A stretch of DNA of 64,000 nt from Schmidtea polychroa (Eukaryota): the NCBI GenBank assembly GCA_044892525.1, contig CM097885.1:34164001-34228000 (forward strand). Reading direction: 5' to 3'. How positions within the stretch are numbered: position 1 is the first letter of the stretch; the number at the start of each line of letters is the position of its first letter. A program made the translations under genes and the position numbers. The notes under the pieces were generated by a model. It ran no database searches, was not told where the DNA came from, and worked only from the letters and a program-made list of their open reading frames with translations. Positions 44,001 to 64,000 of this stretch are shown here, in pieces.

Positions 44001-47000
44001 ATAATGTAATTTCTGTTTCTTTATGACCAGCATTTACACTTTCGAAAAATTGTCATCAATAATTCGCATCCATTCATTGTATTTGCAAAATTACTATCTA
44101 ACCGTAATATTTCAACTTATTCTCTAGCCTGTTTTACTTTCTATAATTCTATCTAACTTCATTGCACCTTTACTTTGGTATTTAAAATGACATTTTTATA
44201 TTATTTTCTATTGGACAATTCTTTTTAGACGATTGTTTTCGATATACCGATTTTAAACTACAGTCCCGGAATGAAGAACCGATGATGTGGAGAAATCTTG
44301 TGGGCCTGTAGTCAGCTTGTAATAGTTTGTATGTATATAATTTCTTTTTGTGGCATTAATTTGTTTTTAAACTATATGGACATTTATTGCTATATAAAAT
44401 TTATGGTACGTAATTTAAATTTTCAAATATCCTTATTGTGCTTCTTTTAGTATTAATGAAAATGAGCACTAATAAAAATAAAATTATATTTAAATTGTTT
44501 AAGTTTATGAATAGATGAATAAAAAAAATCCTTGAAATGTATAAATCAATATTGTTTTTATTTTTTGTAAAAGTTTAATTTTATATCTGATGAATAAAAC
44601 AAAAGTTACCTTCTGACCCAAGTAGCAGATAATTTAAATTGGAAAATTTAAAAGTATGACTTGATAATTGATTGTGTATGTTACATTAGTCCATTAAAAA
44701 GACATTACGAAAAGCTAAAATTTTTAAATAGAAAAGAAATTTTCATGTCTCTGGCAATTAAAATTATAAATGTGTAATAAAATTTTTTGATTAGAATTTT
44801 TCAATTGTTGTTATTTTTGTTTAAACTGTTTAGTGAAAGGAAAGATATCTTAGAAAAGCATCATTAATAAAAGTATTAATGGTTTTTTGCGAGTTTAATA
44901 AATTGTATTTGATATTTTTTCGGAAATCAAATTAAAAAAATTAATCAATTTAACGTTGTTACTGGCAATGACAAAAATAGTAACTATATGCACTGTGAAT
45001 TTAAATTATATATAAAACGTATTAACTAAATTTTTACGAAATATATTAGGCATCTAGTGTTAGGTTTTCATTGTTTTATGGATCAAAAGATTCATCATTC
45101 AGAGAATGACGTTACTAAAATCACTAGATAACATATTGAAAATTGTAACAATAAAAAGTTAACTTCATCTATACACACTTTAAACAAACGAAAATTTCAG
45201 ACAATTTAGAACAATAAATTCAGTGTAAGATGGTTTATTCGGAAAGTGATATGTGTCACAGTATAGTTTAGGTGAAATTCCATTTTTTTTAATGAATATA
45301 TGGAGATTGTTTTAAAGAATAAGTTCTAGTTTAATGCAATAGGTCATCCTCGTGCAATGCTAATGTAACTATTTGTTAACCTCTTGTTTTCGAAAATTAA
45401 ATTAAAGCACTTGGTAAAATATGACAAAAATACTTGTTATTTTAAAGTATTTTAATGATCTATTAACATAAATAAAACTTCATTAGATTAGATCAAAGAA
45501 GTGGAATATTCTAAGGATGTTTTTCAATTTTTAGTTATGAAAATACATTTATGGTGGGGGATAATTTGTGTGGATCTAGATGAGAGAGGATCAAAAATTT
45601 TAGACCATGGATTAAGAAATGGTGTATGAGAATATTAAAGTATGTAGATTTTTTTATCCCATTGAGACTACCCATTTACAATTATAATCCAATTGAATCA
45701 GCTCTATTATAATACTGATCCCATTCACCGTGTTCTATTATAATATTGATCCCATTAACCTTTTCCAATTATAATACTGATCCCATTCAACCTGTCTCTT
45801 TATTATACTGATCTCATTCACCGTGTTCTATTATAATATTGATCCTATTCACCATGTCCCATTATAATACTGATCCCATTAACCTTTTCCAATTATAATA
45901 TTGATCCCATTCACCGTGTTCTATTATGATATTGATTCCATTAACCTTTTCCAATTATAATACTGATCCCATTCAACCTGTCTCTTTATTATACTGATCC
46001 CATTCAACCTGTCCAATTATAATACTGATCTCATTCACCGTGTTCTATTATAATATTGATCCTATTCACCATGTCCCATTATAATACTGATCCCATTAAC
46101 CTTTTCCAATTATAATATTGATCCCATTCACCGTGTTCTATTATAATATTGATCCTATTCACCATGTCCCATTATAATACTGATCCCATTAACCTTTTCC
46201 AATTATAATATTGATCCCATTAACCTTTTCCAATTATAATACTGATCCCATTCAACCTGTCTCTTTATTATACTGATCCCATTCAACCTGTCCAATTATA
46301 ATACTGATCTCATTCACCGTGTTCTATTATAATATTGATCCTATTCACCATGTCCCATTATAATACTGATCCCATTCACCCTGTCTCTTTATAATACTGA
46401 TCCCATTCAACCTGTCTCTTTATTATACTGATCCCATTCACCCTGTCCCATTATAATATTGATCCCATTAACCTTTTCCAATTATAATACCGATCCCATT
46501 CAACCTGTCTCTTTATTATACTGATCCCATTCACCGTGTTCTATTATAATATTGATTCCATTAACCTTTTCCAATTATAATACTGATCCCATTCAACCTG
46601 TCTCTTTATTATACTGATCCCATTCAACCTGTCTCTTTATTATACTGATCCCATTCAACCTGTCTCTTTATTATACTGATCCCATTCACCCTGTCCAATT
46701 ATAATACTGATCTCATTCACCCTGTCTCTTTATAATACTGATCCCATTCAACCTGTCCCATTATAATACTGATCCAATTCACCCTGTCTCTTTATAATAC
46801 TGATCCCATTCAACCTGTCCCATTATAATATTGATCCTATTCACCATGTCCCATTATAATACTGATCCCATTCAACCTGTCTCTTTATTATACTGATCCC
46901 ATTCAACCTGTCTCTTTATTATACTGATCCCATTCACCCTGTCCAATTATAATACTGATCTCATTCACCCTGTCTCTTTATAATACTGATCCCATTCAAC

Positions 47001-49367: not shown

Positions 49368-49982
49368 CGTGACTCAGATTTGATCACGCATTTGAAAACC
49401 TACACTGGGGATTACAAACTTATGTTGATCCAGAGGGCCATTAACTATTAAATTAATTAAGTAGTAATAATTAAAATAGGACTGTTGGAGCTAGCACAAC
49501 ACAACATCTATGGCAAAAGTTTATTTAAAATTATAAAAAGACACCAAATAAACAATAAATTTAACTTATTTTTGTAAATTAATTAAAATTATTTACGTTC
49601 TTTAATGCATTTAAAATTTTTTTAATTAGTTGAATTTATTTGCGAGATAGTCTGAGAATTTTAAATTCAGTAGCCAACTGGTTAATGGATGAACCTGCAG
49701 GAATGCATTGAGCAGTTCCTCGTTCGGTTCAGAAATTAGACGAGTAGGGTATGATTTCAGACACTTTGGTAGCCTGGCCTTAAGTAGGTCAGAATCGGCA
49801 AGTTTTTTCGTGTCAGATACGACTTTCTCAAGAATGTCATATGGATTCTGATCAGTCTCTTCACCAACAGGCACTCCAAGATACTGATAAAATTCATTAG
49901 GTTGTAATTTTTTGATTTTAATGCCGTCGATCGAAATTTCACTATCTATTTCAAGGTTTGGCAATTGAAGATATGCACACTT

Positions 49983-52900
49983 TTAAGGGCGATATTCAAA
50001 GCCGATTTCAGCTGCAGTTGCGACAGCTATATCAGTGATTTTCTGAAGTTCTTCAACAGATTTTGTAACTAAAGCTATGTCATCTGCATATGCAAGGATC
50101 TTAATTGGAGATTTCCCAATCCTGAAAGGTCTACAATCGGATCGCGATACAGCTTCAAGTACTGGATTAATGGCCAAAGCAAACAATATCATCGATATTG
50201 GACATCCTTGTTTGACACCTTGTTTAATAGGGATGTTTGGCGTCAGAATATTACCACAGCTGTGAAAGGTACTTGAGTTGGAATATAACATCTGGATGAT
50301 GGATGCAAATTCCTCGCTTACTCCAATGAATCGGAGTAAGGACCACATGTATTCATGAGGAACACTAACAAAGGCATCTTTTATATCAAGCCAAGCAATT
50401 GCAAGAGGCTTATTTATGCTGTATTTTGAGTGTTCTAGTGCAGCAGAAAGAATTGAATTATGCTCAACACATCCATCATGTTGTGAGCCACTTTTTTGAC
50501 CGATATGTAAAAGATCATTCGAGTTTATCCAACTTGTCAGACGACTAGCTAAACAAGATGCGAAAACCTTGTAAATGACAGAAAGCAATGCAATTGGACG
50601 CCAAGACGAGACGTCATCATATTTTCCATCTTTATCCGGCTTAGGAGTTAGGAGCGTTTTGAAAGTCTTCCAACTGTCTGGTATGGTCTTGTTTAAAATG
50701 ATTTTATTGTACAAGAAAGTTAGCAATTTACCCTCGGGATCAAGAGACAACAAGTCACGATATTGATTTCCATCAATACCAGGACATGTGTTCTCAGCTT
50801 TCTTTAGTTCGATAAGTACTTCATCACATGTGAGCAAAATTAAACGAAGTTTAATTTGGGAACGTTTAGAGAACTCAAATATTTTATCCCATGATTTTTC
50901 TAAAGGGGTTTTGTGCATGAAATTCATGACAATATTTTGAAATTTTGGCATCACTGTGATATTTGTATTGTTGAAGATTTTATTGACTGTTGATTTCATA
51001 TCAGTCATGAATTTTGCGATTAATTTACCCTTGTTGATTTTTGAAGGTAATTTCTTTTTATTTCCCAAGTATGGTTTATGAGTTGATTTTAATTTGTCAG
51101 GGAATTGCTCAATGATAACGTCAATGATTTCGTTTGCATTGAAATCTGTCACTCTCCTCAGTAGTTCTAATGCTTTGAGTTTACGCAATTCTAAATTTTC
51201 ATTCCCCTCTTTATTTTTGTTACTGTTTGTTGGTCTTACAGTCTTTTTCCTATTAAAATCTTTTACAGTTGGGATAAATGAGCTGACGACATTACCAATT
51301 TCGCGTAAGTTCAAATTTGTAAGAGGTAAGTCTTTAGCATAGTTTTGGATGAACGCGCATATCAGGATTTGACTAACTAGACCTGATCCTCGAGTGTCAT
51401 GAGGACAATTACCAGTATATAATACACGGCCAGGTGATTCTCTGATTTCATTAATTTTGTTCCTCAGAATTTTGCAGGTACGAAGATAATTTTCATTACC
51501 ACTCAGTGTTGTCGGATTTAGAAGATAGTGCTCATCAGTTTGGTAATCAATGATAAACAAGATTTTCCGTGATTTTTCTGGTGCTACGATAGTAAATATG
51601 ACTTGTGCCTTGATCAACGATTCACAATCTAAAAATTCATTTAAATATCCAGTGCAATCGTCAAGAATCGCAGTGCACATTGTAGCATTTATAAACATGA
51701 ACTTTGTGGGTAAGTTTAATTTATGAATGTATTTTGATGTGATTTCATCATTAATTTTACAGTTAATTAAGTTTAAATTCCTGGAGATCTCGTTTGTTTG
51801 TTGTATTTTATAAGATTTAAGGGAGTCACTGATACTTCTACGGCAAACCTGATTGTCAAAAAGTAATTTTTCGACCAATTCAATGACAGCAGAAGCAAAT
51901 ATATCTGGGTCAACAGATGTGATGGAAATGTGGTCGATGTTGTGGAGACTATTGAAGTTGATCTTCGTTTGAGAAAGGAAAAATTTATTCATATAGTCTG
52001 TCATGTTTTCTCCTATGCCGATTAGTCTCTCAGTTAGAATTCTGTTGTTAAAGTTGAAAATGTAACTGATTCCTAAAACGAAAGAGAAAAGATACAGACT
52101 CCAATTCGTGTCGTCTGGAATGACGCTGATAACATGTTCTATTCCAGCAAATTGTTTAAACGTGACATTTTCCCTGATGAATATATCGTTTTGTGCAATA
52201 ATATTCAATGTCAGTTCAGTAGAGAGAACAGTAATATTACTTCTATCTTTATACCATTCACTAATCAAGTATGTGACACATGAGTTCTGTTTTTGGAGAT
52301 ATATCAGGTTATCATTTCTCACCTTCTTAACTCCATTCCGTTTGATTGTCTCCATGAATTTTGGAAGGCCACCCCCCGAAGTTTTGGGATCTTTTTGTTG
52401 TTGAGTAAGTTTAAACTGGTGGACCTCTTTCCTGATAGTCTCGATGAAGCAGCCCGACAAGCTCTGCCATTCTCCACAAATCATCATGGCATATGCGCAG
52501 ATGTATGGCCCACAATCGTAGCTATTATTTTGATATAAAAGGTTATTATGAGGATGAAAAGTCATGGCTGCTTTAAGGTCAAACAATTCATTCAGAGCCA
52601 TTGTGATCTTAAGAGCAATTGTTTTATTCGTAAAACTATGCCGATTTAGAAGGATTGGATCAATGAAGTAAGAAATTAGAGAAGATTTACAATAAACGAA
52701 CAAGATCCAATGAGATTTGTCGATGTTAAGGGGGCATAATATTACTTGTGCTTTCAAGACTCTTTCCGGAATTGGGAAAGTGTCATTCTCGAGGTTAGAG
52801 CACAAAATCTCAACGATAAAACATTTGATAGACGCAAATTCTGGGTTGATGATCTGATTTTCGAGAAAATTATCAATATCATCATCAGTGAACCAGATCT

Positions 52901-53027
52901 TTGAGTCGCGTTTTACCATCAAATTTTTATTATTATTAATGATGTCGCGATGTTTATCAGTATTTTTTGTGCTGTCTGCATCAGTCTCCTTAGAGATTGG
53001 GGCAGATGTTGAGACTGATGCAGGCAC
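49983..53027 (-). CDS. Ulp1/C48 cysteine protease + reverse transcriptase
   Basis: WFTDDDID, SHWIL, FIDP, QNNSYDCG; RT motifs CPGIDG, WRPIAL, WLDIKDAF, GVKQGCPIS, YADD. Confidence 0.93.
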   Translation of the reverse strand: MPASVSTSAPISKETDADSTKNTDKHRDIINNNKNLMVKRDSKIWFTDDDIDNFLENQIINPEFASIKCFIVEILCSNLENDTFPIPERVLKAQVILCPLNIDKSHWILFVYCKSSLISYFIDPILLNRHSFTNKTIALKITMALNELFDLKAAMTFHPHNNLLYQNNSYDCGPYICAYAMMICGEWQSLSGCFIETIRKEVHQFKLTQQQKDPKTSGGGLPKFMETIKRNGVKKVRNDNLIYLQKQNSCVTYLISEWYKDRSNITVLSTELTLNIIAQNDIFIRENVTFKQFAGIEHVISVIPDDTNWSLYLFSFVLGISYIFNFNNRILTERLIGIGENMTDYMNKFFLSQTKINFNSLHNIDHISITSVDPDIFASAVIELVEKLLFDNQVCRRSISDSLKSYKIQQTNEISRNLNLINCKINDEITSKYIHKLNLPTKFMFINATMCTAILDDCTGYLNEFLDCESLIKAQVIFTIVAPEKSRKILFIIDYQTDEHYLLNPTTLSGNENYLRTCKILRNKINEIRESPGRVLYTGNCPHDTRGSGLVSQILICAFIQNYAKDLPLTNLNLREIGNVVSSFIPTVKDFNRKKTVRPTNSNKNKEGNENLELRKLKALELLRRVTDFNANEIIDVIIEQFPDKLKSTHKPYLGNKKKLPSKINKGKLIAKFMTDMKSTVNKIFNNTNITVMPKFQNIVMNFMHKTPLEKSWDKIFEFSKRSQIKLRLILLTCDEVLIELKKAENTCPGIDGNQYRDLLSLDPEGKLLTFLYNKIILNKTIPDSWKTFKTLLTPKPDKDGKYDDVSSWRPIALLSVIYKVFASCLASRLTSWINSNDLLHIGQKSGSQHDGCVEHNSILSAALEHSKYSINKPLAIAWLDIKDAFVSVPHEYMWSLLRFIGVSEEFASIIQMLYSNSSTFHSCGNILTPNIPIKQGVKQGCPISMILFALAINPVLEAVSRSDCRPFRIGKSPIKILAYADDIALVTKSVEELQKITDIAVATAAEIGFEYRP

Positions 53028-53033
53028 GCACCT

Positions 53034-54995
53034 TCATTTAATCTTGGAGACTACTTTCCTCGTTTTCCTACTTGGTCTTGTTAGTAGGTCCTCCTGTTGA
53101 TCACAACTGGAAATTGCGGGAGTAGATGGGATTATATCCAAATCAACAGGCAGCTGTCGTTTCAGAGTCGCATGTTCTTGTAGATCACCCTCCAGAATGT
53201 CGTTAATCTCTATGGATCGAGATGGCTCTTTCACAGCTGCTTCCACCGAGGTGTCTAATCCAGATGTGTTTCTCCTCTGCTCACCATTACTTTCAATCAC
53301 AGATGTCAAGAGGACATCAAGCATGTCTGTGATAATGCAAGTCATATTTGGTGTGCAAATTTTCCTACAATGCTTAGGTATACGGTAGGAGAATTTACTG
53401 TTAGATAAAAATTTCTTTTTGTTTCTAATGATAAAAAAGAGAAATCTTTTAGCTTTTATCATCTCTTCTTCGGATGTGCCTAATTCCATTTGATTAATGT
53501 TGCGGCCCAAATTCTCAAGAACCTTAAGTTGGGCAGCCTTTTGTGGACAGATTTCATCAATTTTGTCAAGAAAGGAATTGATTTTATAGATGGTTTCTGG
53601 AGAGATAATGTTGTGTATTCTATCGATCTCCTCTGACAGTTTCCACTGTCGAAGTTTTAGTAGTCTTTCCTGACAACTAGAAGAGTAGTATGAAAGACTG
53701 GGGATCATATTAATCATCTCCGGACCCCAATTTTCGATGTTGTCGCACCTTAATGTATTGCAATTTTCAATTTTAGTAATTGAGTGCATCAAAAAACAAT
53801 TACGTAAATAGTTTTTAACGTACTCATCAAATGTAGGATTTGAAATGTGTATTATGGTGCCTTTTAAATTTAAATAGTTGATATAATATATTATGTCAAC
53901 CAGTTTAGATGGGGAGTTTGGCTGAGTCAGAAGAGAGTTAAGTATGGGGTCATCTTCTGACATTTTAACAAAATTAATCAATCCCAGGTTGAACATTATA
54001 TCAGACGCATTTTCAGAATGCGGGACTTTAGGAATTTCAGTAATTTTATTAGTTTTAATAAATTTGCCCTTCACAAACGAGATCTCGTTAGGGAAATATT
54101 TTTCTAATTTTAAATCATTAATTAATTTAGTTAGTAAATCAGGATTCTTATTTATATTCTCAGAAAAATATAATTCCTGAATTTCAGGAAACGATTTATA
54201 TAACTCTTTCAACTGTGATCGCGAAAGTTCTAAGGTTTGAAGACTGGTGTTCTCATTACCAGAGTCACAGCTATTGAAAAGATCTAATAAGATAAAATCA
54301 CCTTCAGAAAATTTTATCTGTGATCTTATCAAGAAATCGGGAAGTTCACGTCGTTGTTTCATTCCATTCAAGATGTTATTTGTCTGTGCCGCTCTTTGAT
54401 TTATATTTTTGATGGTAGCCGTCTCTGCGAGCTTATGTGAGAGGGAATACAAAAATCTTTTAATTACAGAGGATGCAGGGATAAAACTATCAACATATTT
54501 GTTAGTTTTAACAATATTTGAATCTATTAGCGAAATTTTCAATGCACTAGAAGTCTTTATCTCGATCGGGGCTTTCGCTTTATAGTTCAATTTATGGGAA
54601 ACGCATATGTTGTGGTTTCTGTAAAAGAAATGTGAAAAATCCACGATCGACAAAGGATTATCATTTCCAGATATAGAAGCTAATTCTTTATTTATTGTTT
54701 GAAATTTATTCAGAGTTTCCCGAGACTTAATTAATTTACCTAATTTTGGAAAAAGTTTTATCAAATTTATTTTCTCCGTCCTTGAAAGAGTTCTTACATA
54801 AGATGGGAAAATTGAATTTGAGTATTTTTTGTTATTAATCAAATTTTTGCTTTTAAAATATTTTGTATTTTGATACATTTTATTTTTCAAAAGGCCTTTG
54901 TTTTCTTTAGCCAAAAAATTTGAATCGTTTTTTTCAACTTTAATTATATTTAATTTTGATTTGTTTAAGTTATTTAATTTAATATTAGATAACAT
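53034..54995 (-). CDS. Retrotransposon polyprotein N-terminal region, unknown function
   Basis: 653-aa ORF in frame with upstream ATG 55679 and the downstream protease/RT. Confidence 0.75.
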   Translation of the reverse strand: MLSNIKLNNLNKSKLNIIKVEKNDSNFLAKENKGLLKNKMYQNTKYFKSKNLINNKKYSNSIFPSYVRTLSRTEKINLIKLFPKLGKLIKSRETLNKFQTINKELASISGNDNPLSIVDFSHFFYRNHNICVSHKLNYKAKAPIEIKTSSALKISLIDSNIVKTNKYVDSFIPASSVIKRFLYSLSHKLAETATIKNINQRAAQTNNILNGMKQRRELPDFLIRSQIKFSEGDFILLDLFNSCDSGNENTSLQTLELSRSQLKELYKSFPEIQELYFSENINKNPDLLTKLINDLKLEKYFPNEISFVKGKFIKTNKITEIPKVPHSENASDIMFNLGLINFVKMSEDDPILNSLLTQPNSPSKLVDIIYYINYLNLKGTIIHISNPTFDEYVKNYLRNCFLMHSITKIENCNTLRCDNIENWGPEMINMIPSLSYYSSSCQERLLKLRQWKLSEEIDRIHNIISPETIYKINSFLDKIDEICPQKAAQLKVLENLGRNINQMELGTSEEEMIKAKRFLFFIIRNKKKFLSNSKFSYRIPKHCRKICTPNMTCIITDMLDVLLTSVIESNGEQRRNTSGLDTSVEAAVKEPSRSIEINDILEGDLQEHATLKRQLPVDLDIIPSTPAISSCDQQEDLLTRPSRKTRKVVSKIK

Positions 54996-55783
54996 TTGTT
55001 CTTCAAATTTAGGTAAATAAAATTCTACTTTTCGAATTTTATTATTAACAGTTATTTTTAATTCAGGTTCCAGATATCCACATGCCTGAGCCTGATCGTC
55101 AAGAGAAGGGCCACTCCGGATAACCGAATCGGAACTCGATATTTTTAAAAATAAATTTTTATTTAAATTTTTTACTTCATTTCTAGTTAAGTAATTAGTA
55201 TAATTAGGATCATTATTATCATTATATATATATGTTCTAGATCCAGCATTTAAGGGTTTATTTATAATTTTAGGTTTAATTATATTTAAAGACTTTGAAT
55301 TATTTCTTAATTTAGTAATATAAGAAATTTTTTTATTTAATTTATGTTTTTGATTTTGAAAATCATTTACTTTATTTTGATAAGAATTATATTTATCAGA
55401 ATGAAATCCATTACTAAAATTGTTTTTAAATTCATTATTTTTTACAAAATTATTTAAAAGAGAAGCATTGGCATTCTCAGGTTATAAACTGTAATCTAGA
55501 TTTATATAGTTCAAAAATAAATCAATCTTACGTTTAATTTCCAGAAATCCATCCTCAATCGAAAACATCCTACTTGACAAGTCCAAAAGGCCATCTTCCA
55601 TGGAAATCAGTCCAGAATCTAATCTAGGCATATTTTCATTTGAACGTTGTGCATATAAATAGTTTTTGTCGATATCCATTTGTTAAAATTAACAATCAAT
55701 TTGCTACTGATAGATTGAAAGTAGTTATAATAATTTCAAATTTTCGTCTGTCACAATTTTTTAGCTAAATCAATTAATTTAAT

Positions 55784-55856
55784 TGCCGCGAACCGGGATC
55801 GAACCAGTGACCTTTAGATCTTCAGTCTAACGCTCTCCCAACTGAGCTATCGCGGC
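55784..55856 (-). tRNA. tRNA-Phe (GAA), complete, T5 terminator replaced by retrotransposon 5' end
   Basis: GCCGCGATAGCTCAGTTGGGAGAGCGTTAGACTGAAGATCTAAAGGTCACTGGTTCGATCCCGGTTCGCGGCA; all stems pair. Confidence 0.97.
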
Positions 55857-56038: not shown

Positions 56039-56111
56039 TGCCGCGAACCGGGATCGAACCAGTGACCTTTAGATCTTCAGTCTAACGCTCTCCCAACTGA
56101 GCTATCGCGGC
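56039..56111 (-). tRNA. tRNA-Phe (GAA), complete
   Basis: Identical 73-nt cloverleaf followed by ATTAAATTTTT. Confidence 0.97.
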
Positions 56112-56203
56112 TTATTTACAATAACAGACATCAGCTCATCACTGGTAAATTCCACTAGAGCTTTATTTTGTTGGGCTAGAACTGATTTCTAGACCCAAAA
56201 TAC

Positions 56204-56855
56204 TAATTGTGACTGAAACGTGTAGGTACACAGCAAGTAAAAAGCACCAAGTATAGTTAAATATTAAAACCTACACCAAATAAACAATATTAACTAAAGG
56301 AGAAAGCAACAAAAACATAAACAAAGAAATTAAATAAAATTATACAAATGCAAGAAGTGATGCAAAAATCTAACTCAAAAATAACCAAATAAACATAACA
56401 TTACCAAAAGCAAACTCGAATAACTTAAAAGACGATAAAAACAGTAAAACATTCCAGAAAAACCCAGAACATTCTATAAAATGGCGATGACCATCACAAA
56501 AGTCATCTAGAACAACAAAAGTTAAGGAAAATAAATAAATTAGTATTAAAAAAAAAAAAAAATCTCAAAAAGAATTCATAAAAACATCAGTTAAAATAAA
56601 AATTAAATTAAAAGTAAAATAGAATGTTCTGGAACCGTTCCAAATCCATCATGGACGTAAAATTAATGAAAAATAATTAAAAAATAAAAATATAAAAATA
56701 AAAACAAAAATTATGGCACAAAAATTGCCATTAAAAATAGCAAAATCGTAAAATAGAAAATTCTGGAATAAAAAGAATTCGAGTTTGTTTTAATGCATCA
56801 ATACATACACGTGTACAAAATAGGTATATATACTGACACGTTTCAGTCAGAATTA
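56204..56855. repeat. Segment bounded by 20-bp inverted repeats (possible nested element)
   Basis: taattgtgactgaaacgtgt / acacgtttcagtcagaatta, 19/20 match. Confidence 0.7.
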
Positions 56856-58474
56856 ACCATTATTTTATGCCAAAATTTTTGTGTCAACAAAATATCAACA
56901 GTGAGTACGATTGATTCATTTTATCTATTATTATTTTATTTTATTATTATGTATTGTTGTCTCAACTATGTTAAGCTATTAAAATGTTTTATATTTTGAA
57001 TTTGTTTAATTAAAGTTTTTTTTTGATGTACGAATGTTCAACGGCGTACCGGTATTCCTGCGTCGTTGTTCAGTCCTGCATTTAATTTTTGAATTTGATT
57101 TCACATGCACACATACATTATTTATATTATACTAATCACTTATTACATGGCTCTTTTTGTGTTCGGGTCCTTCGGAGGTCGAACTACTTCATGGTCCTGC
57201 CATGGAGTTAGGTCGAGGAAAACCTCCGTCTGACTCTTTGTATTTATGTAAGGTCGACCGTAAATGGTTGACTCAACACATAACACTAAGGTTTGTGGAA
57301 GTGGTCACAGTGGGGCCATGGAAGCAATATTCTTCCCGACTCATTACGTAATATACAATTAAACTCAACACTTAAAATTCTGAACAAATAACTCCACACT
57401 AAGGTCCTAATCTGAGTAGAACTCATACTTAAATTGACACAATTATACAAATCACAGCAATGTAGATGGTTGATCAGTTATGCTTAGACATATGCCGAAT
57501 TGGGTTTTCGTAACAGTCGTTTATAGTAATCAGAGTAATGGAAAGGTTAAAGATATTCGGCATACGTGTAAGTATAACATAATCTAGTTAAGTCTTCGAA
57601 TCAATATAACTGTAAATATTCCGGACCCCAAAAATTAAGATGCGAAATCCCATCTTAACATACTTATAAGTACTCGGTTGTAATAATCTTTTATGTTGAT
57701 TATAAAACTACAGGTGATAAATGACTATGTCGTTGTAGGTACGAATTATAGCCAGAGAATATAAATTAGGAATTCAGAAATTGAGGTATAAATCGGGAAT
57801 GGTAATGACCAATCTCCTAATGTAAAAAGTCAATCAACTTGAAACTAGTTATACATAGATATACTGCAACTCTGAAGTGATAAAATGATACCCAGAAATC
57901 GGTAAGACAATGTTGATAATAGAAAGGGAAGTTAGAAAGAAGTATACCAAGCTGACCAAAAATTAGAACCCAAAAATATGAAATTATAAATTAGGAATAC
58001 CGAATTACAAATTGTAAATCATAAAACCTAAAATTTTAAATCAGAAAATATAAAATCATAAATGGTAGAATATCGGATTATAACTTATAAGATATAAAAT
58101 TATAATTTACGAAATATAAATGGATAAATTATAAAATATGAAATTTTTAATTGTAAACGATAAAATTATAAATTATAAAATATCAATTCCTAAATTACAA
58201 AATATAAAAATTATGAATTGCAAAATAAAAATTTATAAACTATAAAACTTAAATTTGCAAGTTATAAAATATAAAATTATAAATTATAATTACCTATAAA
58301 CTATAACCACCTATATATTACTTAACAAAATGGTATAAATATAGAGTATGAAAAAACTAGAATTAATACTTAACTTAGAAATTTCGAAATATATATAGTT
58401 ACAATAAGCTTGCCTCTAAGTACAAAAATCCCTTTAAGATTATAAAATAACTGTAAAATTTTTGTAATTCTTAA

Positions 58475-58970
58475 TATCATCACTAGGGTTTCTATTAATA
58501 TTACTAATATTATTAGTATTACCATTATCACTAGTATCATTATTATCCCTATTCGTATCATTATTATTACTATCATTATTATTAATATGATCACTATTAT
58601 TATTATTATTATTACTATTATTACTATTATTATTGTTATTATTGTTAATATTATCACTATTATTATTATCATGATAATCATTATTATTATCATTATTATT
58701 ATTATTATTTTCATTATTATTATTATTATTATTACTACTATCATTATTAATATTATCATTATGATTATTATTACTCTTATTATTATTATTATGATTGATA
58801 TTATTATTATTATTAATCTCGTTATCATTACTATCCTCATTACGACCATTATTATTATCATTATCCTTATTATTATTATCGTTACCATGGTTATTATTGT
58901 TATCCCGGTTGTTGCTATTAGTACTATTAGCGATAAGTTATATACGACTTGACTATTATTATTACTAATA
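58475..58970. repeat. Degenerate (ATT/ATC/ACT)n triplet repeat
   Basis: Direct reading. Confidence 0.9.
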
Positions 58971-59003
58971 CTGCCCTTAATATATATAATTTAATTGTAG
59001 ATA

Positions 59004-59006
<3 letters not shown>

Positions 59007-59069
<63 letters not shown>
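59007..59069. repeat. (TA)n microsatellite
   Basis: Direct reading. Confidence 0.95.
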
Positions 59070-59070
<1 letters not shown>

Positions 59071-59959
59071 TTAGTCATGGTGGAATATATTAGTAAATGC
59101 ATAAATATTATACTGATTATATGGTATCATTATTACTACTTATAAAAATCAATATCCCAATCTGATATTGATTTTAGGATTTCCCCAATAAATTAAATAT
59201 AGAAACAACCCTTTGAGCCAATCAGAGGGATCAGAATTCGGAAAAACTATTTTTAGCAACACCCCCCCCCCTCTGGGAGAATGTTACCATTATTCAAGCC
59301 ACCTAGGGATGTGAATAAGGGGGTAGGATCAGCTATGCAAGTTAACACTGAATATATAATCAAACTTAAGTTTTATCAAATCAACCTAAACGAGAAATTT
59401 TATTCATCAAATTGCCTTGAATAATAAAGTACTGTACACCCGGGTTATAGATGCCAAGCACCATGATTTTCACCTAAGAACGAGAAGCCGAACTCCAGGA
59501 GCTGAATCTCTAACTCTCCAGCTGAAAAACGATCGCCAAATTGTCCCTAAATTAAACACATACGATGAAAGAATAAATTACCCCAAATGCATAGACGATG
59601 ATTTTACCACTTATAACGAATACAACCAGGGGAAGAGTAAGTGGGCAAGAGACTGAGCTCGTCACTAGTACCCTTCGCCTGACGTAATCGCATTTAGTGG
59701 AAATATTCACATCTACAGAAAATTACCTAAAATTTTCCAAAATTTTAACTTATAAAATTCAAATTACCAACTAGTGGTAAATAAATGACGAATGATTAAA
59801 TTAATAATTTAAAACAAAACCATTTTTTTTTGAGATTTTCGGATCGGGTATGGATTTTCTGATGTTAACACTTAACTCTAATGAATTTTTATTTAATTAA
59901 AAAGTATATCAATAGATTAAATAAAATTTGGTCATGTGAGAAGGATTTATATTAATTAC

Positions 59960-60059
59960 AATAAATTTAGTAGTATAATAAATTTAGTAGTATAATAAAT
60001 TTAGTAGTATAATAAATTTAGTAGTATAATAAATTTAGTAGTATAATAAATTTAGTAGT
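59960..60059. repeat. 17-bp tandem repeat x~6
   Basis: aataaatttagtagtat. Confidence 0.93.
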
Positions 60060-60162
60060 TAAGTACTATTGATTTTGAACAAGAACTTTCTGTATGTTTG
60101 TTGTGACATCTATTTATAAGCCACGTTGGCTACGAGCGGGCCTTAATATTCATATTATAGAC

Positions 60163-60528
60163 ATGTCGCAATCGAGCTCTAGCAGTGACGAGGGTACTGA
60201 CCATCAGATGATCACCCGTCTCCGGACCCGGTACATCTGGCACCATATACATCGGTGGGGTCAGGGAAGGGACCTGGACTGCGCAGATAGAGTGATCCGG
60301 ACGGGCCCCGAAGTAGATGCCCCGGCATGGGTGAAGGTGGAGCCGGGGAATAACCGGTTACAGGAGGCCCGAGATCAAGCAGCCTGGGAGGTGGAAGCCG
60401 CTCAGATGCGACTCAAGAAGATCGAGATGCAAATCAAGGCAGAAAAGGAGGGAGTGCCTCTGGAAGAATTGGAAGAATTCGAGGCACCCATGAGAAAGAG
60501 GGGAAGGCCCCGCAAGCACCCCGCGTAA
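60163..60528 (+). CDS. Orphan 121-aa protein with short coiled coil and C-terminal AT-hook
   Basis: GC-rich island coinciding with the ORF from MSQSSSSSDEG; ends RKRGRPRKHPA. Confidence 0.6.
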   Translation: MSQSSSSSDEGTDHQMITRLRTRYIWHHIHRWGQGRDLDCADRVIRTGPEVDAPAWVKVEPGNNRLQEARDQAAWEVEAAQMRLKKIEMQIKAEKEGVPLEELEEFEAPMRKRGRPRKHPA

Positions 60529-60817
60529 TTGTGAGAGGACAATTCGCTCGACATTGACAATTTGTTTTATATGAACTAATTATTAGGAATCTGCTGTGTT
60601 TTATTTTATCTTTTAATTTTGTATTAATAGACGTCGGGTGTTTATTCTCGAATAAAGTATTCTTATGTGTTTTGTAAATCATTTGATAGATGGGGTGATA
60701 TAAGGATGCCCTAGTAGGAAATGTTAACATTAATTCATTGATTTTAATATTTATCGTTCTAACTTTATTGTTGGGTGTAATGGGAACTAATGAATTTCCT
60801 CTTTAGTGTACAAGCTA

Positions 60818-61276
60818 ATGGAAAATCTCCGGAAGGATCGGGAGCAGGCCCAGCACCAAGCCGACGAACTCCGGGTCCGGGTGGACAAGTTGAAGGGAAA
60901 ATGTCGAGAGTTCGAAGGGACCTGGTTTAGTCCCGAAGCAATGAAAAAGAAAACCGCCCAGATCCTCCAGCTGCAAACGCAGGCCGCCCAAGACCAAATA
61001 GAGATCCGCGCCCTGAAGCTACAGGTGCGGGTGCTCGAAACTGAGAAAAACGAGCAGTTGGTACAAGGGGCCATAGCCAGACAAATACGGCCACTGGCTG
61101 TGGACCTCGCAACTATATATCCCCCAGCCGCTGAAAATAAGCCCAAAAGGAAACGGCTTGGCCGAAATATTCGGGAGAAATTGAAGAAAGCTAGGCTGGC
61201 CGAATACGAGCGGCAAGCAAATTCGTCACCAGCAGCCACGACGAAATTGGCCAGTCCTACCAATAAGCCTGTTTGA
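60818..61276 (+). CDS. Orphan 152-aa coiled-coil protein with basic NLS-like tail
   Basis: GC-rich island coinciding with the ORF; heptad-like Q/E/L/K-rich N-terminal half; KPKRKRL. Confidence 0.6.
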   Translation: MENLRKDREQAQHQADELRVRVDKLKGKCREFEGTWFSPEAMKKKTAQILQLQTQAAQDQIEIRALKLQVRVLETEKNEQLVQGAIARQIRPLAVDLATIYPPAAENKPKRKRLGRNIREKLKKARLAEYERQANSSPAATTKLASPTNKPV

Positions 61277-61802
61277 ACTTATATTCGGTTTAAGGTGTTT
61301 TGTAGTATATTTGTGTATTGTTGTAGTCTTCAAATAATATGTTCCTTATTAAAATAATGCACATTTTGCAGTGATAAAATAATGACTAGTATAGTTTATG
61401 ATTGCCTGGAAAATGAGAGTTTGTGCATAAGGTTGGGAAAACAATTTTGATAAAGGGACCTGAGGAATCGGACACACACCTTCTATCGGTAGTCCGTGAA
61501 CCCATGGAGTGCTCGACAATTATAGTGCTTTGATGCGCTCACTTTTTGCGAGTACTAAACCCTTGGTACAGTACCAACGTTGATTGCTCAACGGGTACCA
61601 AGAGGAAAACAACGTTGTATTCTGCGTTACGCTGGTAACAGCACTCAAACATTCAACCACCGGTAACCCACCAATTTTCAAATTTTCATCAAACACCAAT
61701 CTTATTTCCAACGTTCAAATTCATTATCATTTGAATTCAGATCAATATAATATTTCAATTTCAATATTTGACAAGTGACATAAATTTTTTCAAAAATTTA
61801 AT

Positions 61803-61869
61803 TGCCGCGAACCGGGATCGAACCAGTGACCTTTAGATCTTCAGTCTAACGCTCTCCCAACTGAGCTAT
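61803..61869 (-). pseudogene. tRNA-Phe lacking nucleotides 1-6 (retrotransposon insertion site)
   Basis: Identical to positions 7-73 of the intact copies; GCCGCG replaced by the element 3' UTR. Confidence 0.93.
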
Positions 61870-64000
61870 AGTTAAAACATTTATTAATTATAATAAATTT
61901 GATATTTGTATTTACAATAGGACAGTGTTCAGCATGGAACACGCCTTTCGAGAAAATAACAAGAACAAAAGAGTCAGAAAGAAATCGATCATATTCAATG
62001 TATTTTTCGGGATTATTTCGACTCAGATGTTAATGTCAATTTTCTGATTAGTCCCTGGCTCTGATGATATCGCAGTCATCGGATGTTTTATCCGGCTTTG
62101 AATATTGGAGTGTTCAATTACATCAGTTTTCACCAGTCATTCAACCTGCAATCTGTTTCCTGGGCTGATGTTGAGAATCTGAACCTTCAATACGCAGCAT
62201 CGAAACAATATCCCTGCAATAGACAAAAAAAGCATATTTACATGTTTATAAATATATACAACTGCCTTTCTTTTGGAGGGTTCATCTAAAATTCTAAATA
62301 TATACAAAGATATTTATACATATACATTGATATTTAAAAACCCGAGAATGACAATGCTTCTGAGATCTTAGAGCAATTTGTTATGGAGATTTTTCTAATT
62401 AAGGTCTGCTAAAGTGCCAGTTTTGTGGTAGTACCACCGTCTGGCAGAATGTGTGATGTTACTTATCGTACATTCCTTCAGTAGACTGTTTATTTCTGTG
62501 CGTTTAACTCCAATTTTTAAAAGGATTTCAGGAGTTGATGACGGAAAAGAACCCAAAGCTCCGATAATACAAGTGTCAAGTTCGACTTTGAAATCAGGTT
62601 TGACAGCTTGTATTTCATTCTTAAGCGATTCGTATTTAATTAAATTTGAAGAGTCAACTAGTTGAAAGTTCTTGACAGAGTCGATAGGACATTTCATGTC
62701 AACTAGAAAGATCTTCCTTTTCAACAAATCAGTGATCATTAAATCCACTCGTTCTTTGGAATTCGGAACAAGTGAACAGATATGATCTACTACAACAATC
62801 AAGTTGGGATTTTTCATTAATCGATTAGTGATTAATTTCAGACAGTCATCATGTCGCTCTGAGGCAAGGGTCAGATGGACTTTACAAGATTGAATGACAT
62901 GTGACATTGTCTCTTCCTCAGTTTGACAACGACGACAAAGTCTTTTACCACCTTTATTGTAAGGCTTCGCATTGACTGAGAGGGAGTTTGTGCGAGCTCT
63001 GTGTATGAAGTTCCAAGCAAATTCAGAGAGAGCACCACGAAAAATTGCGATGTTTATTTTAGGCGAAAGTCTGATTGCTGCAGCTATAATGTTGGAGTTA
63101 TGACTGTTCTCTCCTTTCAAAAGATAGGCATCGCAGAGTGCCATGTGCAAAACCTTAGACGTGGTTTGGCGTAAGTCAGAAGTGAGAATACACGTGCCAC
63201 GCATTGCTGTTGTAATATAAAGCGATGTTTCTTGCTTTGTTACAATAAATGCTATTGAGATTTTGTGATATTTTTCAAAAAATGCAATAGCAGTTCTGAC
63301 TCGCTGGAATCGAGTTTTCTTTCCAGAATGGCAAAGTTTGGATTGCTTACCATTGAGCCAGTCAAGACTCTCCTGTAGTGTAGGGTCTTTTATTCCGAGT
63401 CGAGGTCCAGTGACAAAGCTCAGAGAATCAGTGTTGATCTTTTTCGCAAAGTCACACTTCGATGTTAAGAGTCGAAAGAAATGTGTTATTGTCTGTGTGT
63501 GATATTCGTCAAGAAGGTCTACACAGTTTGCTCCTCCGTTTTCAGTTGAGTTGTAGAAATAACTTACTTCAGAGTGATTTGGCAAAAGTAACATTTTTCT
63601 GAGACAACTCCTCACTTGACTGGTGATGTTGACAGAACGATTACTATTGGCGCTTGGTTTTGAAAGAGCGCTAGTTTTAATTTCGCGAGTTCTAAAGGGA
63701 AAAATCAAACGTGAATGGACAAAGATCTTATAAGCTTTAAGTTTTTGCCATCCAAGTAGGTCAGAGTCGGCAAGTTTTTTCGTGTCAGATACGACCTTCT
63801 CAAGAATGTCATATGGATTCTGATCAGTCTCTTCACCAACAAGCACTCCAAGATACTGATAAAATTCATTAGGTTGTAATTTTTTGATTTTAATGCTGTC
63901 AATCGAAATTTCACTATCTATTTCAAGGTTTGGCAATTGAAGATATGCACACTTTTCAGGGCGATATTCAAAGCCAATTTCAGCTGCAGTTGCTACAGCT
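61870..64000 (-). mobile_element. NeSL-like non-LTR retrotransposon, copy 2 (3' portion; continues beyond right edge)
   Basis: RT thumb, CCHC knuckle, RLE and 525-nt 3' UTR joined to tRNA-Phe nucleotide 7. Confidence 0.93.
62395..63999 (-). CDS. Retrotransposon polyprotein C-terminus: RT thumb, CCHC zinc knuckle, restriction-like endonuclease (partial)
   Basis: KC...YQYLG; GGAN; CRRC...ETMSHVIQSC; RHDD; RVDLM...VDMKCP...KY; IIGALG; frame open to window edge. Confidence 0.92.
   Translation of the reverse strand, partial: AVATAAEIGFEYRPEKCAYLQLPNLEIDSEISIDSIKIKKLQPNEFYQYLGVLVGEETDQNPYDILEKVVSDTKKLADSDLLGWQKLKAYKIFVHSRLIFPFRTREIKTSALSKPSANSNRSVNITSQVRSCLRKMLLLPNHSEVSYFYNSTENGGANCVDLLDEYHTQTITHFFRLLTSKCDFAKKINTDSLSFVTGPRLGIKDPTLQESLDWLNGKQSKLCHSGKKTRFQRVRTAIAFFEKYHKISIAFIVTKQETSLYITTAMRGTCILTSDLRQTTSKVLHMALCDAYLLKGENSHNSNIIAAAIRLSPKINIAIFRGALSEFAWNFIHRARTNSLSVNAKPYNKGGKRLCRRCQTEEETMSHVIQSCKVHLTLASERHDDCLKLITNRLMKNPNLIVVVDHICSLVPNSKERVDLMITDLLKRKIFLVDMKCPIDSVKNFQLVDSSNLIKYESLKNEIQAVKPDFKVELDTCIIGALGSFPSSTPEILLKIGVKRTEINSLLKECTISNITHSARRWYYHKTGTLADLN

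What the first reader, a model, noticed from the sequence alone, without database searches (positions are those of the whole stretch)
56165..61677. 5.5-kb TG...CA element with ATTT TSD: probable giant solo LTR just upstream of a tRNA gene
Seen: the empty site is available in the neighbouring unit, so the boundaries are exact. Termini TGTTGGGCTA / TAACCCACCA are 8/10 inverted, the TSD is 4 bp, and there is no pol or paired LTR. Established: TG..CA ends with a 4-bp TSD typify Ty3/Gypsy integrases; giant Gypsy elements (Burro) are described in Schmidtea; several LTR elements target the region upstream of tRNA genes. Inference: a solo LTR of exceptional length, inserted 54-57 bp upstream of the tRNA at 56111.
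Basis: partly seen in the sequence, partly recalled or inferred. Interest (0 to 1): 0.7.

Follow-up and report, generated by a model that had tools for sequence, protein, structure and literature searches.

The report
Giant solo LTR, not tRNA-targeted
This 5.5-kb insertion is the lone end-repeat of a known kind of giant flatworm retrotransposon (Burro type) that most likely landed in a tRNA gene array by chance, and the unusual part is that its family has no purine tract where second-strand DNA synthesis normally starts, carrying instead a conserved hairpin and a look-alike of the primer tRNA's end that would likely serve as that signal.

Summary
Observation confirmed. The element is 56169-61673 (5,505 bp), TG...CA, with an ATTT duplication, and its flanks are identical to the empty array unit. 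It is a solo LTR. The same sequence occurs as 99.7-99.98% identical direct pairs around a ~25-kb interior with a tRNA-Pro primer site and Gag-MATH-Env-PR-RT-RH-IN-ankyrin plus TRAF and BIR-RING genes, the published Burro/GYPSM1 layout. The length is normal for the family.

tRNA targeting is refuted: 0 of 47 other left insertion flanks carry a tRNA, and genome-wide only this copy among 2,803 LTR starts lies just upstream of a called tRNA. The tRNA-targeted element here is the neighbouring LIN25_SM-like LINE (29 of 30 ends inside tRNA genes).

Two extras. The LTR carries two ORFs under purifying selection (AT-hook; coiled coil), which this scan noted before on other DNA. The family and three related LTR families also have no polypurine tract: a conserved hairpin plus a tRNA-Pro-end look-alike precedes the 3' LTR (1,051 of 1,070 genome matches). 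Its role in plus-strand priming is inferred, not shown. Verdict: known kind of element with one interesting open lead.

The parts
56165..56168 (+). Left copy of the 4-bp target-site duplication ATTT
56169..61673 (+). Solo LTR of a Burro-type giant Gypsy element, 5,505 bp, TG...CA; + strand is the element's sense strand (PBS and pol lie on this strand in paired copies)
56169..56860 (+). 5' end of the LTR: nested inverted repeats predicted to fold into one long hairpin (z = -6.1; 0 of 20 shuffles as stable)
   Evidence: prediction only
57981..59069 (.). Low-complexity tandem tracts inside the LTR (7/22-bp AAATTAT repeats, (TAT)n, (AT)n); source of most length variation between copies
60163..60528 (+). 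LTR ORF-A, 121 aa, acidic stretch plus C-terminal RGRP AT-hook-like motif; open here; dN/dS 0.11-0.21 against 8 diverged subfamily copies
   Evidence: AT_hook below Pfam cut-off; 5 of 10 members match at E<=1
60818..61276 (+). LTR ORF-B, 152 aa from the first Met, predicted long helices plus a basic KRKR stretch; open here; dN/dS 0.09-0.12 against 5 diverged copies (3 more saturated); its Met is not conserved, so the true start may be in an upstream exon (inferred)
61440..61673 (+). 3' end of the LTR (U5 side, next to the PBS in paired copies); predicted multi-stem fold, z = -2.8
   Evidence: prediction only
61674..61677 (+). Right copy of the target-site duplication ATTT
55784..55856 (-). Host tRNA-Phe(GAA), first unit of a 255-bp tandem array; its upstream spacer is the empty-site reference
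56039..56111 (-). Host tRNA-Phe(GAA); the LTR sits 54-57 bases upstream of it
61803..61869 (-). Third tRNA-Phe gene, lacking its first 6 nt where the neighbouring LINE's 3' end joins it
61870..64000 (-). 3' part of a separate LIN25_SM-like (NeSL-related) non-LTR retrotransposon, the tRNA-targeted element at this locus; not part of the LTR

Best explanation
The 5,505-bp TG...CA insertion is a solo LTR of a Burro-type giant Gypsy retrotransposon, likely left by recombination between the two LTRs of a ~36-kb element that had integrated with a 4-bp duplication, and its place in a tRNA-Phe array is likely a chance hit rather than targeting. Shown: boundaries and TSD; the same LTR in direct pairs around gag-env-pol; a tRNA-Pro PBS 8 nt after the LTR; no tRNA beside other insertions; two LTR ORFs under purifying selection; no purine tract before the 3' LTR. 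Inferred: integration by the element's DDE integrase; LTR-LTR recombination as the origin of the solo; recent age (flanks identical to the array unit, 98.4-98.7% identical to the nearest paired LTRs). Inferred, and weakest: plus-strand synthesis is primed at the conserved hairpin plus YGGGYCCCSG motif 7-9 nt before the LTR, which resembles the tRNA-Pro 3' end and mirrors the 7-8 nt between the LTR and the PBS, so both DNA strands would start from similar primer-template duplexes (about 0.35; 5'-3' RNA pairing about 0.35; other about 0.3).
For: Both LTR ends recur as same-strand pairs about 29-37 kb apart. Paired LTRs are 99.68-99.98% identical in 4 of 4 pairs compared. Whole-element TSDs are 4 bp: TCAT, TATT, ATAA, CTAT, GTAT, AAAA, and one pair with one mismatch. 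PBS TGGGGGCTCAGCCGGGAT is complementary to the 3' end of the genome's tRNA-Pro(TGG). Interior domains in order: 3 CCHC knuckles, MATH, viral fusion glycoprotein, protease, RT, RNase H, integrase, ankyrin, then separate TRAF and BIR-RING ORFs, as described for Burro1/GYPSM1 (PMC6431247, section 7 read whole). Solos are common: 9 of 40 position-ordered LTR starts. Against targeting: 0 of 47 external left flanks of 1.5 kb carry a tRNA (classification; ARAGORN). Genome-wide, 8 of 2,803 LTR starts have a B-box-like word at the right distance, and only the window's own is a tRNA by ARAGORN. For right ends it is 5 of 3,534 matches, none a tRNA. About 3 and 4 such hits are expected by chance. The genome holds 1,893 tRNA-Phe and 1,555 tRNA-Pro end matches, the listed ones almost all in tandem arrays, so an occasional chance hit is expected. 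No PPT: 9-11 purines in the last 20 nt and a longest purine run of 4-6 in the last 70 nt, in 5 of 5 junctions folded. The motif has 1,070 matches (0 in the reversed control), 1,051 of them directly before an LTR start.
Against: The pattern test covers one geometry only (tRNA start about 28-88 bp from the LTR end, pointing away) and consensus B-boxes. Two hits (L147, L158) show A-box-like words that neither ARAGORN nor Rfam calls tRNA, so a weak bias to Pol III-type sequence is not excluded. The 2,803 count mixes subfamilies and truncated copies: 28 of 40 starts had no matching right end within 9 kb. The priming idea has no direct support: the hairpin stem is invariant (no covariation), the motif pairs with the PBS at 12 of 12 positions in two families but 10 of 12 in two others, and the duplex beat shuffles in three of four families (fractions 0.003, 0.037, 0.003; 0.18 in the fourth). 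A search for integrated LTR-LTR circle junctions gave 3 hits, none carrying the predicted spacers.
Confidence: 0.9

Rival explanations
1. The element targets DNA just upstream of tRNA genes, as yeast Ty3 and Ty1 do through Pol III factors.
For: The window copy lies 54-57 bp upstream of a tRNA-Phe gene. Ty1 and Ty3 integrate near Pol III genes (PMC4974528, passages).
Against: 0 of 47 other external left flanks and 0 of 19 other external right flanks have a tRNA within 1.5 kb. Genome-wide, 1 called tRNA among 8 + 5 pattern hits from 2,803 + 3,534 end matches, near the chance level. In a 255-bp array every position is within about 180 bp of a tRNA.
Confidence: 0.03
2. It is a non-autonomous Ginger-like or other DNA transposon with short terminal inverted repeats.
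For: TG...CA ends, 8/10 inverted termini and a 4-bp TSD also fit Ginger (recalled, no call).
Against: The whole 5.5 kb occurs as near-identical direct pairs around PBS-gag-env-pol.
Confidence: 0.01
3. The solo is itself a mobile unit or a self-contained two-gene expression cassette, not only a recombination scar.
For: Both ORFs are open in this copy and under purifying selection between subfamilies. Solos outnumber 5' LTRs 9 to 2 in the position-ordered sample. Contigs of runs guessed to be RNA cover the ORF region.
Against: A solo has no PBS and no 3' motif, so it cannot be reverse-transcribed as a unit by the element's route. Selection on the ORFs is explained by their use in full-length elements. 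The runs are not on record as RNA, and contigs cannot be assigned to this copy.
Confidence: 0.1
4. The conserved motif before the 3' LTR is not a plus-strand primer but a partner for long-range 5'-3' pairing with the PBS region that circularises the ~30-kb RNA, as CYC5/CYC3 do in Ty1; plus-strand priming then uses some other non-purine site.
For: The motif pairs with the PBS in one register in all four families, with A>G and C>U changes that keep G-U pairs. Ty1 cyclisation and the Ty3 bipartite PBS are precedents (PMC4974528, passages). Direct pairing of the motif with tRNA-Pro was no better than shuffles.
Against: It does not explain why the motif sits at a fixed 7-9 nt from the LTR start, mirroring the PBS spacer, nor what replaces the PPT. 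Pairing there would compete with the tRNA primer.
Confidence: 0.35

Closest known systems
Burro1 / GYPSM1 giant Gypsy-like LTR elements of planarians (PMC6431247, section 7 read whole; Grohme et al. 2018 and Lee et al. 2026 not held, known only through that review and passages of PMC13465017)
   Same: Interior about 25 kb, total over 30 kb, thousands of LTR copies; one polyprotein with Gag (three CCHC knuckles), MATH, Env between gag and pol, PR-RT-RH-IN and ankyrin; BIR-RING gene; one copy's frame is 4,812 codons stop to stop (from coordinates) against 4,873 aa for Burro1.
   Different: Sequence identity to Burro1 not tested. BCL2-like, SUMO-like and dUTPase-like motifs were not seen by Pfam (the review found the last two with HHpred). 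The LTR ORFs and the missing PPT are not mentioned in the section read.
Ogre elements of plants (PMC6431247, section 7)
   Same: Very long LTRs (1.9-6.5 kb), so 5.5 kb is within the known range.
   Different: Plant lineage, 11-13 kb interior, no Env inside the polyprotein described there.
Yeast Ty3 and Ty1 (PMC4974528, passages)
   Same: LTR retrotransposons primed by a host tRNA; 5'-3' RNA interactions aid reverse transcription.
   Different: They integrate near Pol III genes, which this family does not do. They use tRNA-iMet, and (recalled) canonical polypurine tracts.
LIN25_SM, NeSL-related planarian LINE (PMC4640811, passages and S6 Fig part 2 plus search passages) - for the neighbouring element only
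   Same: Similar AT-rich 3' end and the same junction just before the A-box of tRNA-Glu(TTC); S6 Fig also shows it in other A-box-like sequences.
   Different: Listed there as tRNA-Glu-specific; here the best 30 copies sit in Ser (10), His (7), Val (4), Glu (4), Phe (3), Met (1) genes and one degenerate tRNA-like sequence.

Membership tests
Solo LTR of an LTR retrotransposon | TG...CA ends flanked by a short TSD, no interior | tested here: met
Solo LTR of an LTR retrotransposon | Same sequence occurs as direct pairs around gag-pol with a TSD around the whole element | tested here: met
Ty3/Gypsy LTR retrotransposon | Domain order PR-RT-RH-IN | tested here: met
Ty3/Gypsy LTR retrotransposon | tRNA primer-binding site after the 5' LTR | tested here: met
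   tRNA-Pro(TGG), 8 nt after CA
Ty3/Gypsy LTR retrotransposon | Polypurine tract before the 3' LTR (usual feature, recalled; not used to define the clade) | tested here: not met
   hairpin plus YGGGYCCCSGAGTG instead
Burro / GYPSM1 | Size over 30 kb with an interior up to 25 kb | tested here: met
   interior about 25.4 kb between L032:793 and L035:3193; LTR starts about 30 kb apart
Burro / GYPSM1 | Env in frame between gag and pol in one giant polyprotein | tested here: met
   PF24664 between MATH and protease
Burro / GYPSM1 | MATH, BIR, RING and ankyrin cargo; three CCHC knuckles | tested here: met
Burro / GYPSM1 | BCL2-like, SUMO-like and dUTPase-like motifs | tested here: inconclusive
   no Pfam hit; no profile-profile library available
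Burro1 specifically | High sequence identity to the published Burro1/GYPSM1 sequence | not testable with these tools
   sequence and original paper not held
Pol III-targeting LTR elements (Ty3/Ty1 type) | Most insertions just upstream of tRNA genes | tested here: not met
Ginger-like DNA transposon | Stands alone, not as paired direct repeats around RT | tested here: not met

The most novel reading that the evidence does not exclude
Burro-lineage elements replicate without a polypurine tract. The plus strand is primed by an RNase H-resistant RNA that mimics the 3' half of the tRNA-Pro primer (hairpin plus YGGGYCCCSG), so both strands start from look-alike duplexes and the linear DNA carries 7-9 extra bases at each end that integrase must trim, instead of the usual 0-2.
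Probability: 0.3. Interest if true: 0.75.

Novelty: new member of a known kind. Interest (0 to 1): 0.38.

Why it matters
The solo LTR itself is ordinary for this genome, and the proposed tRNA targeting is wrong, which matters for annotation: two different elements share this tRNA array and only the LINE is site-specific. The lead worth following is the family's replication signals. A polypurine tract is treated as a standard LTR-element feature and is used by annotation tools (recalled); here over a thousand 3' junctions in at least four families lack one and share a different conserved motif. If it is the plus-strand primer, it would be a new priming mode for a reverse transcriptase, testable in vitro with short oligonucleotides. 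Solo LTRs with two open, selected genes are also a possible source of dispersed regulatory proteins in a stem-cell model animal.

Tried and rejected
tRNA targeting: rejected (see best explanation). DNA-transposon reading: rejected.

Circle-junction search for linear-DNA end sequences: 3 hits, uninformative. Direct pairing of the 3' motif with tRNA-Pro (Ty3-type bipartite PBS): no better than shuffles in 4 of 4 families.

Homologues of the LTR ORFs outside this genome: none at E<=0.001; ESM Atlas gave no usable hit for ORF-A and only scores under 0.9 for ORF-B; the profile search of representatives was still queued and gave no result. Structure predictions gave only helices with pTM 0.32 and 0.35, so no fold search was run.

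Expression: no RNA holder listed on record. Contigs of three runs guessed to be RNA cover parts of the LTR, and one shows an A-tail near 56520; no control on a silent stretch was obtained, so this is not used as evidence. The bacterial promoter scan is irrelevant to this genome.

Literature: no paper held joins Burro, planarian and polypurine; searches found no report of this motif or of an AT-hook ORF in an LTR (listings only). The two key Burro papers and their supplements could not be read, so absence from print is not established.
Full report
1. Observation. The element runs from 56169 to 61673 (5,505 bp), begins TGTTGGGCTA, ends TAACCCACCA (8 of 10 inverted) and is flanked by ATTT. Both flanks are identical to the empty spacer of the neighbouring array unit. 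The two tRNA-Phe(GAA) genes are at 55784-55856 and 56039-56111 on the minus strand, and the insertion is 54-57 bases upstream of the second. No pol lies inside. The site is the left edge of a 255-bp tRNA-Phe tandem array that continues beyond the window: 15 genes in the next 10 kb and 1,893 matches to the tRNA-Phe end genome-wide.

2. It is an LTR. Searches of the own genome with each end returned the 40 best of about 3,000 and 2,300 candidates, many as same-strand pairs about 29-37 kb apart. Right ends are followed either by unique DNA or by one fixed sequence holding TGGGGGCTCAGCCGGGAT, 8 nt after the CA. Left ends are preceded either by unique DNA or by one fixed sequence. The first is complementary to the 3' end of this genome's tRNA-Pro(TGG). 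Four pairs of LTRs are 99.68-99.98% identical, and the window's copy is 98.2-98.7% identical to eight LTRs of its subfamily and about 74-84% to a diverged one. Whole elements carry 4-bp TSDs. Of 40 LTR starts taken in chromosome order (starts with an interior junction or an evident partner about 30 kb away were mostly left out), 9 were solos with an exact TSD (8 of 4 bp, 1 in a microsatellite), 2 were 5' LTRs, 1 had no matching TSD and 28 had no matching right end within 9 kb; solo lengths were 2.6-7.2 kb, six of nine between 5.0 and 5.7 kb. The window's length is therefore typical.

3. It is Burro-type. The interior of two paired copies holds, in order, three CCHC knuckles, MATH, a viral fusion glycoprotein (PF24664), protease, RT, RNase H, integrase and ankyrin repeats. 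Separate ORFs were also seen, with Pfam hits in the one copy scanned for them: RING upstream, and TRAF and BIR-RING downstream. This matches the description of Burro1/GYPSM1 in PMC6431247 (section 7 read whole): interior up to 25 kb, a 4,873-aa polyprotein, Env between gag and pol. PMC13465017 (passages) reports a BIR-RING gene in Burro1 that protects stem cells. The original Burro papers were not held, so assignment to Burro1 rather than a sister family is untested. That the host is a planarian is inferred from these element families.

4. It does not target tRNA genes. ARAGORN found no tRNA in the 1.5-kb flanks of 47 other external left junctions (19 ranked by similarity, 28 in chromosome order; two appear to be duplicates of one site) or 19 other external right junctions. 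A genome-wide pattern for an LTR start with a B-box-like word 80-140 nt away gave 8 hits among 2,803 starts; only the window's is a tRNA (Rfam negative for the 6 of 7 others scanned). The mirror pattern gave 5 hits among 3,534 right-end matches (130 in the reversed control), none a tRNA. Chance gives about 3 and 4 (from only 4 background hits, so rough). Against this: the test covers one geometry, and two hits show A-box-like words. With thousands of arrayed tRNA genes and thousands of insertions, one hit in an array is expected.

5. The tRNA-targeted element here is the neighbour. A non-LTR element with Ulp1-like protease and RT and a C-terminal zinc knuckle and endonuclease-like region read by eye ends at 61870, inside the third tRNA-Phe gene, which lacks its first 6 nt. 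Of the 30 best-scoring 3' ends (40 listed, 901 candidates), 29 join tRNA genes at the equivalent place: Ser 10, His 7, Val 4, Glu 4, Phe 3, Met 1; one joins a degenerate tRNA-like sequence. End sequence and junction resemble LIN25_SM (PMC4640811, passages and S6 Fig). This is a known kind, and this scan has noted similar LINEs elsewhere in the genome.

6. Genes inside the LTR. ORF-A (60163-60528, 121 aa) ends in an RGRP AT-hook-like motif; ORF-B (60818-61276, 152 aa) is predicted to be long helices with a basic stretch. Against diverged subfamilies dN/dS is 0.11-0.21 (8 copies) and 0.09-0.12 (5 copies; 3 more saturated); among near-identical copies it is noisy, 0.1-1.2. ORF-B has 23-29% identical relatives in the LTRs of another family. 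No homologue was found outside the genome. A role in regulating the element's DNA or RNA is inferred. Earlier notes of this scan describe LTR genes of this kind on other DNA; they are leads, not support.

7. No polypurine tract. Before the 3' LTR there is no purine run (9-11 purines in the last 20 nt). Three other tRNA-Pro-primed LTR families, with LTRs of 1.6, 4.2 and 4.2 kb, two of them with Env in the polyprotein, show the same thing: an invariant hairpin AATTGCG-GGN-CGCAATT, then YGGGYCCCSGAGTG, then TG. The motif has 1,070 matches in the genome (0 in the reversed control), 1,051 directly before an LTR start. It resembles the tRNA-Pro 3' end and pairs with the PBS in one register (12, 10, 10 and 12 of 12 positions). 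Spacers mirror each other: CA to PBS 8, 7, 7, 7 nt; motif to TG 9, 7, 7, 7 nt (the fourth value is one too high through a slicing slip). The absence of a purine tract and the conservation are shown. The function is inferred: a tRNA-mimic plus-strand primer (about 0.35), a Ty1-like cyclisation partner (about 0.35; PMC4974528, passages), or something else. No circle junction was found to test it. Searches found no report of it (listings only; earlier notes), but the key papers and their supplements were not available.

8. Verdict. A real, young solo LTR of a known kind of giant element; the targeting idea is refuted. Interest 0.38, carried mainly by the missing polypurine tract.

Noticed in passing
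window 61870-64000 and L049 1-5735 (minus strand): LIN25_SM-like LINE inserted in a tRNA-Phe gene; the family's 30 best 3' ends fall at the same position in six tRNA isotypes. Its 5' end in L049 is followed by an inverted duplication of about 300 bp.
   Followed up: partly
window about 49626-55760 (minus strand): Second copy of the same LINE family (97% identical over 247 nt), truncated at its 3' side, with Ulp1-like protease and RT.
   Followed up: no
L035 3150-3193, L191 1690-1730, L197 1600-1644, L207 1610-1650: Conserved hairpin plus YGGGYCCCSGAGTG motif in place of a polypurine tract in four LTR families.
   Followed up: yes
L189-L191 (G000:C1:5728807-5744373): Short family with 1.6-kb LTRs about 14 kb apart; only a CCHC-bearing Gag-like frame was seen among ORFs of 250 aa or more, so possibly a non-autonomous relative sharing the same PBS and 3' motif.
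   Followed up: partly
window 56169-56860: Nested inverted repeats predicted to form one long hairpin at the LTR's 5' end (z = -6.1); an A-tail in one contig set near 56520 hints at a polyadenylation site early in the LTR, unverified.
   Followed up: partly
window 49483-49570: Short stretch starting TGTTGGAGCTAG with weak similarity to the LTR's first 130 bases; possibly the end of a related, truncated LTR.
   Followed up: partly
G000:C2:109111042-109168233 (L010, L013-L016): Several LTR-end plus PBS units repeated about 6 kb apart next to a full-length element; looks like a tandem amplification of the LTR-leader junction.
   Followed up: no
window 45703-47396: 31-bp (124-bp higher-order) tandem repeat with strong strand skew, about 55 copies.
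   Followed up: no
G000:C1:130901009 onward (L081): tRNA-Pro(TGG) genes in a 475-bp tandem array; 1,555 matches to this tRNA end genome-wide (may include a few element primer sites), showing very large tRNA arrays in this genome.
   Followed up: partly
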